Position numbers: made by a program. A DNA stretch of 64,000 nucleotides from the NCBI GenBank assembly GCA_965113315.1, contig OZ220369.1. The stretch is one strand, 5' to 3'. Shown here piece after piece: positions 1-3,000 of the stretch. The stretch comes from Podarcis vaucheri (Eukaryota). How positions within the stretch are numbered: the stretch's first letter is position 1; every line of letters begins with the position of its first letter.

Positions 1-3000
1 AGTATCAGTCTGCAACAGTCTTCCCTGCATTTGGAGAGGGAGATGCATCCGCTATAGTAGCTAAATAAATCAGGTTTCTGTGCAGTGTGTGCTGGTGTCT
101 GTAACAGAGAAACAGAAGAATGAGATTCCTTAGGGCAACTGAAATAACAGAATAGCTCTGGCAGCCAGCATATAAGTGACAGTAGGATTTAGGTCTCTAT
201 TTTGCTCACTTCATACTTGAGAAAGGAGGGGGAAGGCAAGAGTTGTTAATTAATATGAAGCCAATAATATTTTTGAACCCTCTTAGCTTCTTTCCCCTGT
301 TCCTGATAGCATTTTATTTTTAAATTGAAGGAAATGTTGTTGTTTTTTTTAAAAATACTAATTAAGTCAATGTTTTGTTGTTGTTTAGTCGTTTAGTCGT
401 GTCCGACTCTTCGTGACCCCATGGACCAGAGCACGCCAGACACTCCTGTCTTCCACTGCCTCCCACAGTTTGGTCAAACTCATGTTGGTAGCTTCAAGAA
501 CACTGCCCATGTTTAATGATGTTTAATGATCACTTAATTCCTGTAAAGGCATAGATGAGTGGGCAATGATGCACACTGGAGCACATCATTCTAACTTTAC
601 ATTCACACTGATGAAGTCTGAACTAGCAGTGTCTAACCAGGGAAGATCTTGCTGTTGTGGTACACAGCTCTATAAAATCGTCAAGCTTGTGCAGTGGCAG
701 CAAAAGGGGGAAATGTTAGGGATTATTAGAAAAGAAATTAAAAATAAAACAATGGCCTTTCAGAAGTCTAGGGCTGCCAAGAAGAAGGGTCGGTACATCT
801 GTAAGCTATTACCTCCCACATTAAAGTCAGCAAAATAAACAAGATTTTCATTAATGCCCTGCACAGTCTGGTTGTGTTTTACAGACCAATTGCATTTATT
901 TCAGCAACAATGTGCCTGATTTCAATTCTCCTTCACCTCCCCTGTAAATTTGCTCAGGACCAATGAGATTTATTCAAACCCACGTCTCGCAATGAGACAC
1001 GCAAGCTCTCTAAACAATTACTTGATTGTTTGCTTTAATCAAGCAAATACAAAAATGAAGTCCTGAAAAATGCATAATAGGCGACTCTTAGATTGAATTT
1101 ACTTACTGCACACATTCTTCAGCTCTTCCTTTATTCTGATATTCCACAATACATCGAATAAGCTGGTCATTTTCTTCAAGCAGCTGAAAGTCACAACAGC
1201 ACTGGATCAACTGCATATTACAGGAACTTGTTCAAGAACTACTACTAAACAATTACACTGGATAATTGTGAGGATGCTTTATAGACTGTGCACTACCATC
1301 TCACGATCAAGGAGGCAGTGTGTGGGTGGGTGATCAGAGGCTTCAAAGGCACCAGGGAACAATTTTAAGAGCACCATGGTGCCCACAGGTGTCCTACTGA
1401 TGACCCCTGATTTCAGATTATTAAAGTGGTGGGTGAAGAATATCCGGTACTAAAAGAATGTCAACTTCAGTCGTCAACTTACAGACTTAAATATTAAAGG
1501 GTGAGTTTTCTTTTTGGTAGCGTTAAGAGTTTACTATTACTGCAAAAGGTATAGGATATTCTCGCAGACTATGCTATTCATTTGTTTTAGTCATCTTTCT
1601 GGCAGTGTACCGCTTTTTATTGTACTTGGTTATGGCCTCTCGCTAAGCAATCATGACCGAGGAGAGTGAAGGAGCCGAACTGCGCAGCGCCACTGATTTC
1701 GGCCAACCCTGAGAATGTACAGAGTGCACTGCCCTTCCTAATGCGCAGGCGGATCAGAGTGGGCGTTCCTTGACCAGAGTCACTGACGTCACCCTCTCAG
1801 CTTTTAAGCAGCCCGGACCATCTTCACGCAGCCTGCAAGAGGCGGGGAATGAAATGGCAAAGACACTTCCGGTTCTAATCGGCTAACTAACCCAATACAA
1901 AGAACCTGGCCAGAAAACCAGAGAGAGCGGAAAGGTAGAGCGGCGCTCTGACTCCTCCCGATGTTCTTGCCTTTCCTATGGCGGCGTATGGGAGTTAAAA
2001 ACAGGGCTGCGTGAGCGACGCTCCCCTCCGCTCTCTCTATGGCGCCCGTCCCTTTCGCTCACCCGTTGCAACGTCTCTTGGTTCACCTCCGCCTTGCCTC
2101 GGAGTTTCTCCGGCACGAAAACCACCGACATGCCAGCGGAGGGAGCGGCAGCGGCTTCTAAGCCTCACGCGAAAAGTGGGCCGCGACGCAAAGGTTGATG
2201 GGAGCAAAAGGGCAATACTTTGCACCGATTGGCTGCCCCTGTGCGGCCTCGGAAGCTCCCTTACATGAATGCAGATCATTAAATGTAGAGTAGTCCATAT
2301 CCCGGTGTGACTACGAAGCTTCCGAGTTTTGAAAATTCCGACCAGTTAAACGGGTTAGACTACAGTGAAAGAATTTATGTGTGTATATGAGAGAGAAGAG
2401 TGTGCCAATCAATTTCTAGCGTTACGGAAGAGGGAGAAAAACTTTACTTTCTCTGCGCTATGCATAATTTTGTGGATTTCTATCACGTCAGGCTGCAGCA
2501 AAGACCGTGCTAATTAAGGGGCCTGCTCGCCACTCTCTTCCCAAATCGGCGCTCACTCGCAGCACAGACGCGGCTTCTCCGACTAGCAAAGCCTGCAACG
2601 AAAAATCTCAAGTTAACCCGGGAGCTGCGCAGCGCGTGCGACTCTACATCCTTCCTTCAGTCTATAGTATACGTATCAGAGGAACTCCCTTCCTCTCCCC
2701 CGCCGTTCTTCGAAGCCTTCGTAGCAATTGGCCAGTCGGGCCGGTGGAGGCGGGCTCTGAAAACAAATTACGACGGCGGGGCCTCGGTTGTGTTGGGAAG
2801 GCGGGCTATGGGCTGATTGGCGAGCCTGAAGGCTCGAGGGGCGGACGTGATTGGTCAGAGGCACGAAAGGTGGGCGGGGCCAAGTCGAGGTGAGTTGCCA
2901 GGGCTCCGGTTGTCAAGCGGCAGCCAATCAGGGTGGGGGATGGGAGCGGGTGGTGGAGGCGGAGAGCGCTGAGAGCCGTTCAGACGGAGGAGCGCGCGGG

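What the first reader, a model, noticed from the sequence alone, without database searches (positions are those of the whole stretch)
5..3000. Hidden intron-containing SS18L2 gene head-to-head with KATNB1, a neighbourhood unlike human
Seen: a complete, intact 79-aa SS18L2-like gene with three small exons (69/77/94 nt), absent from the ORF track, starts about 0.8 kb from the KATNB1 first-exon donors. Established (recalled): human SS18L2 lies on chr3 near SEC22C/NKTR, whereas KATNB1-KIFC3 lies on chr16 next to DRC7. Inference: because it keeps introns it is not a retrocopy, so it is either a translocated orthologue or an ancient SS18L2 paralogue lost in mammals, sharing a bidirectional promoter with the katanin subunit gene.
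Basis: partly seen in the sequence, partly recalled or inferred. Interest (0 to 1): 0.65.

Follow-up and report, generated by a model that had tools for sequence, protein, structure and literature searches.

The report
Lizard SS18L2 gene beside KATNB1
The small three-exon gene is real, but it is the ordinary lizard copy of SS18L2, already named in public lizard annotations, and it is probably mammals rather than lizards that moved this gene.

Summary
Window 5-2131 (minus strand) carries a complete 79-codon SS18L2 coding sequence in three exons of 69, 77 and 94 nt with GT-AG introns. Exons 2 and 3 each pass Pfam SSXT on their own. The three exon peptides match the database protein 'SS18-like protein 2 [Lacerta agilis]/Podarcis' at 23/23, 25/25 and 30/30 residues. 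So the gene is hidden only from an ORF track, not from annotation.

KATNB1 lies on the plus strand from 4972 to 21013. A 1.7-kb CpG island with CCAAT and GC boxes lies between the two genes.

Identities and a tree of 61 named SS18L2 proteins follow the species tree, so this is the orthologue, not an old paralogue. Lamb 2021 (PMC8040251) already reports that SS18L2's chromosome is aberrant only in opossum and human, and proposes a translocation in a stem mammal.

SS18L2 and KATNB1 share a contig in Pogona, Anolis sagrei and Erythrolamprus, but not in a gecko, a tinamou or a bat. The shared promoter is plausible but untested. Low novelty.

The parts
5..98 (-). SS18L2 exon 3, coding part with TGA stop (94 nt; HQHTLHRNLIYLATIADASPSPNAGKTVAD*)
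   Evidence: Translation. Pfam SSXT E=2.9e-8, profile 38-60. 30/30 identical to P0006 residues 50-79. Acceptor ...ttacag|.
99..1106 (-). SS18L2 intron 2 (1008 nt, GTAAGT...ACAG); holds a SINE-like element at about 385-530
   Evidence: The repeat motif at 396-427 is found once in the window.
1107..1183 (-). SS18L2 exon 2 (77 nt; LLEENDQLIRCIVEYQNKGRAEECV plus the first two bases of codon Q49)
   Evidence: Translation. Pfam SSXT E=4.6e-12, profile 12-36. 25/25 identical to P0006 residues 24-48. Aligns to the SS18 part of PDB 7vrb, E=5.9e-4.
1184..2062 (-). SS18L2 intron 1 (879 nt, GTGAGC...TCAG)
2063..2131 (-). SS18L2 exon 1, coding part (69 nt; MSVVFVPEKLRGKAEVNQETLQR); the 5' UTR is not mapped
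   Evidence: Translation. 23/23 identical to P0006 residues 1-23. An in-frame stop lies just upstream, since the frame opens at 2164.
1601..3400 (.). CpG island spanning SS18L2 exon 1 and the intergenic region. It has CCAAT boxes at 2228, 2405, 2727, 2816, 2850 and 2924, GGGCGG at 2839, 2872 and 3091, and no TATAAA. This is the candidate divergent promoter.
   Evidence: CpG observed/expected is 0.7-1.1 in 200-bp windows. Island-like windows are 1601-2300 and 2401-3400. Motif counts in 2132-3300: CCAAT 6 against 2.5 expected from window density, GGGCGG 3 against 0.27.
2887..2895 (+). Best donor-like site (gag|GTGAGT, G at 2890): candidate end of a non-coding KATNB1 first exon
   Evidence: Its score is in the top 0.06% of all GT sites in the window, using a rough donor matrix recalled from memory. 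Assigning it to KATNB1 is an inference.
4952..5011 (+). KATNB1 ATG-bearing exon (acceptor ctgctttctgtag|, ATG at 4972, MAAAVATKTAWKL, donor C|gtaagt at 5012)
4972..21013 (+). KATNB1 coding region (WD40 repeats plus katanin con80 domain) in many exons
   Evidence: Pfam hits. tblastn of Podarcis muralis KATNB1 (P0129, P0130) maps residues 13-658 to 5405-21013. 570 of 579 residues covered by HSPs above 80% identity are identical.
27240..31662 (-). Kinesin motor exons of a C-terminal-motor kinesin (KIFC3-like), tail to tail with KATNB1
   Evidence: Pfam Kinesin E=1.9e-35 (27240-27578) and 5.1e-15 (31043-31264). Microtub_bd at 31043-31264 and 31453-31662. The name KIFC3 rests on the position beside KATNB1 and was not tested by a search.

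Best explanation
Window 5-2131 (minus strand) holds the complete coding sequence of the lizard orthologue of SS18L2. The product is a 79-aa protein that consists only of the SNH (Pfam SSXT) domain, the part of SS18 that contacts the SMARCA4 ATPase of BAF chromatin remodellers. It is an ordinary three-exon gene, and NCBI and UniProt already name the same protein in lacertid lizards. The window's KATNB1 is essentially identical to that of Podarcis muralis, so the window comes from that species or a close relative.

The gene lies head to head with KATNB1 inside one TATA-less CpG island with CCAAT and GC boxes. The two genes are therefore most likely transcribed divergently from a shared or two-part promoter. 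This step is inferred.

The contrast with human is best explained by relocation of SS18L2 in the mammalian stem lineage, as already proposed in print. The lizard keeps the older chromosomal home. Whether the immediate adjacency to KATNB1 is itself ancestral or arose within squamates is open.
For: Gene structure and family.

Identity to the annotated protein: the exons match P0006 at 23/23, 25/25 and 30/30 residues.

Annotation elsewhere: one search returned 14 of 14 candidates at E<=1. Of these, 12 are squamate proteins with an SS18L2-type name, one is a squamate 'hypothetical protein', and one is an unnamed ENA record. One search found 207 of 211 candidates at E<=0.001 and listed the best 120. 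Nearly all of the named rows carry an SS18L2-type name; the rest are mostly hypothetical or unnamed proteins.

Orthology: mean identity of P0006 to 60 other named proteins is squamates 87.1% (n=12), tuatara 80.0%, birds 79.1% (11), crocodile 77.9%, mammals 77.5% (12), amphibians 71.5% (13), coelacanth 68.4% and ray-finned fish 69.6% (9). In the ML tree of 61 rows, squamates form one clade (SH-aLRT 100), archosaurs 91 and placentals 94, inside an amniote clade (83), with amphibians and fish outside.

[quoted passage not shown] The other five species used are gar, reedfish, Xenopus, zebra finch and chicken (passages read).

Co-location: the contig length listed for SS18L2 equals that for KATNB1 in Pogona vitticeps (27,704,077), Anolis sagrei (44,317,406) and Erythrolamprus reginae (58,257,149).

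Promoter features.

SNH domain and SMARCA4: PDB 7vrb 'SMARCA4 protein, Protein SSXT' aligns to exon 2 (E=5.9e-4) and exon 3 (E=4.5e-3) at adjacent positions 66-89 and 92-111. PMC9381743 (passages read) reports G2/M arrest after SS18L2 knockout in MDA-MB-231 cells and cites proximity labelling of BAF members.
Against: Six species have contig lengths for both genes, and three of them differ:
- Paroedura picta, a gecko: 41,532,673 against 205,925,973.
- Nothoprocta perdicaria, a tinamou: 7,276,185 against 2,083,260.
- Pteropus alecto, a bat, where a difference is expected: 26,627,730 against 9,048,895.

So the adjacency is not shown for sauropsids in general, and it may be absent in geckos and at least one bird. 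The column gives the longest contig of a 90% cluster, so a mismatch could also come from another cluster member.

The main text of Lamb 2021 does not say which chromosome SS18L2 is on in the non-mammals.

A shared contig of 28-58 Mb is not adjacency.

There are no transcript data, so the KATNB1 first exon, both transcription start sites and the expression of SS18L2 in this lizard are all inferred. The CCAAT excess is modest (6 against 2.5).
Confidence: 0.8

Rival explanations
1. The head-to-head adjacency with KATNB1 is a derived rearrangement within squamates (non-gecko lizards and snakes). It is not an old vertebrate arrangement, even if both genes were already on the same ancestral chromosome.
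For: In the gecko Paroedura picta and the tinamou Nothoprocta perdicaria the listed contigs of the two genes differ, whereas an agamid, an anole and a colubrid share one contig. Other geckos fit the same pattern. SS18L2 is listed on contigs of 49.7 Mb (Eublepharis) and 72.4 Mb (Heteronotia), and KATNB1 on 178.2 Mb (Gekko kuhli). These are different species, so this is only suggestive.
Against: Bird SS18L2 contigs (20.4-24.5 Mb in 11 chromosome-scale rows, with outliers of 26.9-110 Mb in Spheniscus, Alca, Mycteria and Ara) and bird KATNB1 contigs (19.3-25.9 Mb) have the same size range. Zebra finch chromosome 11 is 20.6 Mb in Lamb 2021. This is compatible with one shared microchromosome. No gene order was seen for any species but the window's.
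Confidence: 0.4
2. The gene is an ancient SS18L2 paralogue retained in reptiles and lost in mammals, and mammalian SS18L2 at SEC22C/NKTR is the other copy.
For: Only the different neighbourhood. Reciprocal loss after an amniote-stem duplication cannot be formally excluded with 78 alignment columns.
Against: Identity to mammals (77.5%) is about the same as to birds (79.1%) and higher than to amphibians (71.5%) or ray-finned fish (69.6%). The tree follows the species tree with no deep split between mammals and the rest. Among the 120 rows listed, species that appear twice show isoforms or duplicate annotations. Where a contig is listed for both rows it is the same one (Mycteria P0023 and P0103, both 51,305,444). 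The search covered only proteins of 43-139 aa, and only the best 120 of 207 were listed. Lamb 2021 treats SS18L2 as one ohnolog across seven species.
Confidence: 0.04
3. It is a processed retrocopy or a decaying pseudogene that happens to lie beside KATNB1.
For: None found.
Against: There are two GT-AG introns of 879 and 1008 nt, an intact frame, and 100% identity to the annotated lacertid protein. Database isoforms (P0016, P0017) diverge from the standard protein exactly at the exon 1/exon 2 boundary found here, before LLEEND. The first exon lies in a CpG island.
Confidence: 0.01
4. The two genes have separate, independent promoters that merely lie in one CpG island. One would be the SS18L2 core near 2150-2300 and the other the KATNB1 core near 2700-2890, or KATNB1 might start just upstream of 4952. 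In that case there is no functional sharing.
For: The motifs fall in two groups about 500-600 bp apart. One group has a CCAAT in SS18L2 orientation at 2228 with ETS-like CGGAAG sites at 2250-2425. The other has CCAAT and GC boxes at 2727-2924. A less GC-rich stretch at 2201-2400 separates them.
Against: By the usual working definition (recalled), divergent start sites less than 1 kb apart count as a bidirectional promoter. The ATG exon of KATNB1 is preceded by a strong acceptor (ctgctttctgtag|), which argues for an upstream non-coding exon. The only top-scoring donor is at 2890.
Confidence: 0.3

Closest known systems
SS18-like protein 2 of lacertid lizards (P0006: NCBI 'SS18-like protein 2 [Lacerta agilis]', UniRef 'SS18 like 2, Podarcis')
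   Same: Every exon peptide is identical (23/23, 25/25, 30/30), and the length is the same at 79 aa.
   Different: Nothing at the protein level. This is the same gene as already annotated.
Human and other mammalian SS18L2
   Same: It is the same short SNH-only protein, 77 aa in most mammals listed. Mean identity is 77.5% and the genes are orthologous on the tree. In human it also shares a two-way start site with a neighbour (PMC8665767).
   Different: The neighbours differ. In human they are SEC22C and NKTR on chromosome 3; here it is KATNB1. Squamate proteins have a long stem branch (0.38) with changes such as HQHT where other groups have YQHV or YQHI.
SS18 (SYT) and SS18L1 (CREST), BAF complex subunits; PDB 7vrb (SMARCA4-SS18 SNH fusion)
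   Same: The SNH/SSXT domain. Exons 2 and 3 align to positions 66-89 and 92-111 of the 7vrb chain.
   Different: SS18 and SS18L1 carry a long C-terminal Q/P/G/Y-rich region (recalled). This gene stops after 79 aa. Knockout of SS18 or SS18L1 did not copy the SS18L2 knockout phenotype in MDA-MB-231 cells (PMC9381743).
Bidirectional CpG-island promoters of vertebrate head-to-head gene pairs
   Same: Divergent orientation, a CpG island, no TATA box, and CCAAT and GC boxes. The distance from the ATG to the candidate first-exon donor is 759 bp.
   Different: The start sites are not mapped, so the defining distance of under 1 kb between start sites is untested.

Membership tests
SSXT/SNH domain family (Pfam PF05030) | Match to the Pfam SSXT profile above the gathering score | tested here: met
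   Exon 2 scores 45.8 bits and exon 3 scores 33.6 bits against a cut-off of 26.2. They cover adjacent profile positions 12-36 and 38-60. Exon 1 alone has no hit.
SS18L2 subfamily (short SNH-only proteins) | Protein of about 75-80 aa that ends soon after the SNH domain | tested here: met
   The stop codon is at 7..5, after 79 codons. Most named tetrapod SS18L2 rows are 74-81 aa.
SS18L2 subfamily (short SNH-only proteins) | Orthology to named SS18L2 genes (nests according to the species tree, one copy per species) | tested here: met
   and the rows. Resolution is limited (78 columns), and only 120 of 207 hits were listed.
SS18L2 subfamily (short SNH-only proteins) | Binding to SMARCA4/SMARCA2 and BAF complexes | not tested
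   The only evidence is homology to the SS18 part of 7vrb and a citation in PMC9381743 of proximity labelling.
Processed retrocopy | No introns at the parental intron positions | tested here: not met
   There are two GT-AG introns of 879 and 1008 nt.
Bidirectional promoter pair | Two genes on opposite strands, 5' ends facing | tested here: met
   SS18L2 is on the minus strand with its ATG at 2131. KATNB1 is on the plus strand with its ATG at 4972.
Bidirectional promoter pair | Transcription start sites less than 1 kb apart | not testable with these tools
   No transcript data are available. The candidate KATNB1 exon-1 donor at 2890 is 759 bp from the SS18L2 ATG.
Bidirectional promoter pair | CpG island, TATA-less, CCAAT and GC boxes | tested here: met
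   Island-like windows at 1601-2300 and 2401-3400. Counts in 2132-3300 are 0 TATAAA, 6 CCAAT (2.5 expected) and 3 GGGCGG (0.27 expected).
Katanin p80 (KATNB1) | N-terminal WD40 repeats plus C-terminal con80 domain in one gene | tested here: met
   Pfam WD40 and Katanin_con80 hits lie in order on the plus strand. Podarcis muralis KATNB1 maps colinearly.

The most novel reading that the evidence does not exclude
SS18L2 and KATNB1 form an old divergent gene pair driven by one CCAAT-box CpG-island promoter. That would tie a G2/M-required BAF-associated factor to a spindle microtubule-severing subunit. The pair was broken when SS18L2 moved in stem mammals, where it ended up paired with SEC22C instead. 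If so, the regulation of SS18L2 was rewired at the origin of mammals.
Probability: 0.2. Interest if true: 0.4.

Novelty: already known. Interest (0 to 1): 0.2.

Why it matters
It matters little beyond annotation. The gene is already named in lizard genomes, and its odd position in mammals is already noted in print as a likely stem-mammal translocation.

Three modest points are new. The lizard gene lies head to head with KATNB1 in one CpG island. It shares a contig with KATNB1 in an agamid, an anole and a colubrid snake. A gecko and a tinamou do not seem to share that contig. This gives a small, easily checked case for dating a single-gene relocation and a change of promoter partner. The finding also shows that short multi-exon genes escape ORF-based scans.

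Tried and rejected
- the exon 3 peptide (30 aa) was too short for the search for homologous proteins, which needs at least 40 aa. I then sent the unaltered 63-aa stop-to-stop window frame that contains exon 3.
The per-protein contig lengths, which would have tested co-location in lacertids, snakes, birds, turtles and the crocodile and clarified the gecko and tinamou mismatches, stayed unchecked.
- Exon 1 alone gives no Pfam hit.
- Rfam at gathering thresholds finds nothing in the window.
- Literature searches with no paper: SS18L2+KATNB1, SS18L2+KIFC3, SS18L2+'bidirectional promoter', SS18L2+'SNH domain'.
- Three chicken papers name SS18L2 only in gene lists and give no location.
- The main text of Lamb 2021 does not name the non-mammal chromosome of SS18L2. 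Its supplementary table S1B may, but supplements are closed.
- The joined 79-aa spliced model was neither built nor searched. All searches with the window's own sequence were exon by exon, or with single unaltered frames. Full-length comparisons used the database protein P0006.
- Structure prediction, complex prediction, the atlas search and the representative search were not used, because the family was clear.
I corrected it and sent it again.
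Full report
**What is there**

On the minus strand of window 5-2131 there are three short coding exons.
- Exon 1 runs 2131..2063 (69 nt, MSVVFVPEKLRGKAEVNQETLQR, followed by gtgagc).
- Exon 2 runs 1183..1107 (77 nt, preceded by tttcag and followed by gtaagt).
- Exon 3 runs 98..5 (94 nt including TGA, preceded by ttacag).

The introns are 879 and 1008 nt. The ATG at 2131 is the first in its frame after an in-frame stop. The total is 79 codons, and codon 49 is split CA|A across intron 2. 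No single open frame holds the gene. The exons lie in stop-to-stop frames of 62, 42 and 63 aa, which explains why an ORF track misses it. Only four bases follow the stop codon, so the 3' UTR lies outside the window. The window contains no N.

**Is it more than chance**

I searched the spliced model exon by exon. The joined 79-aa model was neither built nor searched. Exon 2 alone matches Pfam SSXT (PF05030) with E=4.6e-12 and exon 3 with E=2.9e-8. Both are above the gathering score and cover adjacent profile positions (12-36 and 38-60). Exon 1 alone gives nothing.

The 63-aa window frame that contains exon 3 found 14 of 14 candidates at E<=1. Of these, 12 are squamate proteins with an SS18L2-type name, one is a squamate 'hypothetical protein', and one is an unnamed ENA record. 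One hit, P0006 ('SS18-like protein 2 [Lacerta agilis]', UniRef 'SS18 like 2, Podarcis', 79 aa), is identical to the three exon peptides at 23/23, 25/25 and 30/30 residues, covering its positions 1-23, 24-48 and 50-79. So the gene is real, intact and already annotated in lacertid lizards.

**Surroundings**

KATNB1 lies on the plus strand. WD40 and katanin con80 hits follow each other from 5.3 to 21.0 kb. One KATNB1-specific exon is 100% identical to four Podarcis muralis KATNB1 entries. The P. muralis protein maps colinearly to 5405-21013, and 570 of the 579 residues covered by high-identity HSPs are identical. The window therefore comes from Podarcis muralis or a close relative.

The KATNB1 start codon is at 4972, in a small exon (4952-5011) preceded by a strong acceptor. 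This argues for a non-coding first exon further upstream.

Between the two genes lies a CpG island: island-like windows at 1601-2300 and 2401-3400, with CpG observed/expected of 0.7-1.1. In 2132-3300 there are six CCAAT boxes (2.5 expected from window density), three GGGCGG (0.27 expected) and no TATAAA. The best donor-like site in 2501-3600 is gag|GTGAGT at 2890, 759 bp from the SS18L2 ATG. It is in the top 0.06% of all GT sites in the window, by a rough matrix that I recalled from memory. That the donor belongs to KATNB1 is an inference.

A C-terminal-motor kinesin lies tail to tail with KATNB1 on the minus strand at 27.2-31.7 kb. This fits KIFC3, although I did not test that name by a search.

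**Orthologue or paralogue**

With the database protein P0006 as query, 207 of 211 candidates passed E<=0.001, and the best 120 were listed. Nearly all of the named rows carry an SS18L2-type name, and they come from squamates, tuatara, birds, a crocodile, mammals, amphibians, coelacanth and ray-finned fish.

I took 61 named rows and left out all unnamed ena/lgn records, primates and most duplicate isoforms. Mean identity to the lizard protein falls in the order of the species tree:

| Group | Mean identity | n |
|---|---|---|
| Squamates | 87.1% | 12 |
| Tuatara | 80.0% | 1 |
| Birds | 79.1% | 11 |
| Crocodile | 77.9% | 1 |
| Mammals | 77.5% | 12 |
| Amphibians | 71.5% | 13 |
| Coelacanth | 68.4% | 1 |
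| Ray-finned fish | 69.6% | 9 |

A quick ML tree (78 columns, so many forks are unresolved) shows squamates as one clade (SH-aLRT 100), archosaurs 91 and placentals 94, inside an amniote clade (83). Amphibians and fish fall outside, and there is no deep split between mammals and the rest.

Species that appear twice among the 120 rows show isoforms or duplicate annotations. Where a contig is listed for both rows it is the same one. This makes an ancient paralogue unlikely. A recent duplication with reciprocal loss cannot be formally excluded.

**Who moved**

Lamb 2021 (PMC8040251; passages read, supplements not seen) curated ohnolog families in gar, reedfish, Xenopus, zebra finch, chicken, opossum and human. 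[quoted passage not shown] So the human position beside SEC22C and NKTR is the derived one. That position is confirmed for human in PMC8665767, which also reports a two-way start site shared by SS18L2 and SEC22C. A pig interval lists KIFC3, KATNB1, ADGRG3, ADGRG1 and DRC7 without SS18L2 (PMC8227816).

The main text of Lamb 2021 does not name the non-mammal chromosome.

**How widely SS18L2 sits with KATNB1**

No eukaryotic genome collection is available, so gene order could not be read anywhere but in the window. As a proxy I compared the 'longest contig' listed for SS18L2 and for KATNB1 in species present in both lists. Six species have a value on both sides.

| Species | SS18L2 contig | KATNB1 contig | Same? 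|
|---|---|---|---|
| Pogona vitticeps (agamid) | 27,704,077 | 27,704,077 | yes |
| Anolis sagrei (anole) | 44,317,406 | 44,317,406 | yes |
| Erythrolamprus reginae (colubrid) | 58,257,149 | 58,257,149 | yes |
| Paroedura picta (gecko) | 41,532,673 | 205,925,973 | no |
| Nothoprocta perdicaria (tinamou) | 7,276,185 | 2,083,260 | no |
| Pteropus alecto (bat) | 26,627,730 | 9,048,895 | no |

Chromosome-scale bird contigs have the same size range for both genes: 20.4-24.5 Mb for SS18L2 in 11 rows (with outliers of 26.9-110 Mb in four species) and 19.3-25.9 Mb for KATNB1. Zebra finch chromosome 11 is 20.6 Mb in Lamb 2021. No bird species other than the tinamou is in both lists.

The column describes 90% clusters, not single proteins. 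My conclusion is that co-location with KATNB1 holds for lacertids (this window), an agamid, an anole and a colubrid. It is apparently not the case in a gecko and a tinamou. Whether the immediate adjacency is ancestral or arose within squamates remains open.

**How it most likely works**

The product is an SNH-only protein. Exons 2 and 3 align to the SS18 part of PDB 7vrb, a fusion of SMARCA4 and the SS18 SNH region, at adjacent positions (E=5.9e-4 and 4.5e-3). PMC9381743 (passages read) reports that SS18L2 knockout causes G2/M arrest and loss of fitness in MDA-MB-231 cells, unlike knockout of SS18 or SS18L1. It also cites proximity labelling of BAF members. The most likely function is therefore a small BAF-associated factor that binds through its SNH domain. 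This is inferred from homology and not tested here. Divergent transcription with KATNB1 from the CCAAT/GC-box CpG island is likely but not shown.

**Novelty**

No paper in the searched library holds SS18L2 together with KATNB1, KIFC3 or 'bidirectional promoter'. But the gene is annotated, and its mammal-specific relocation is in print. I rate it as already known and of low interest. The open point is the age of the head-to-head pairing.

Noticed in passing
window 385-530 (SS18L2 intron 2): A SINE-like element. From memory, its core (396-427) resembles the BovB-related tail of squamate and ruminant SINEs. With up to 3 mismatches the 32-base core occurs only once in the window.
   Followed up: partly
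window 4401-4600 (between the CpG island and the KATNB1 ATG exon): An isolated CpG-rich 200-bp patch (13 CpG, observed/expected 1.04) in otherwise CpG-poor sequence. It could be a young repeat or an alternative promoter.
   Followed up: no
window 55601-56900, also 22301-23000 and 37401-38100: Further CpG-island-like stretches. The one at 55.6-56.9 kb lies upstream of the minus-strand kinesin exons and could be the KIFC3 promoter.
   Followed up: no
SS18L2 proteins of squamates (P0004-P0021): Squamate SS18L2 sits on a long stem branch (0.38 changes per column, SH-aLRT 100). It shares changes such as HQHT where other vertebrates have YQHV, YQHI or YQQI. This points to faster change in the squamate stem of an otherwise very conserved protein.
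   Followed up: partly
P0004 (Notechis scutatus, 69 aa) against window 99-196: An annotated snake isoform skips exon 2 and reads into sequence just upstream of exon 3. This resembles the window's own read-through frame there. It is probably an annotation artefact or a minor alternative acceptor.
   Followed up: no
Paroedura picta (P0013, P0138) and other geckos: In geckos SS18L2 is listed on contigs of 41-72 Mb, and KATNB1 on contigs of 178-206 Mb (Gekko kuhli, Paroedura picta) plus a 2.5-Mb scaffold in Gekko japonicus. This suggests that the two genes are on different chromosomes in Gekkota.
   Followed up: partly
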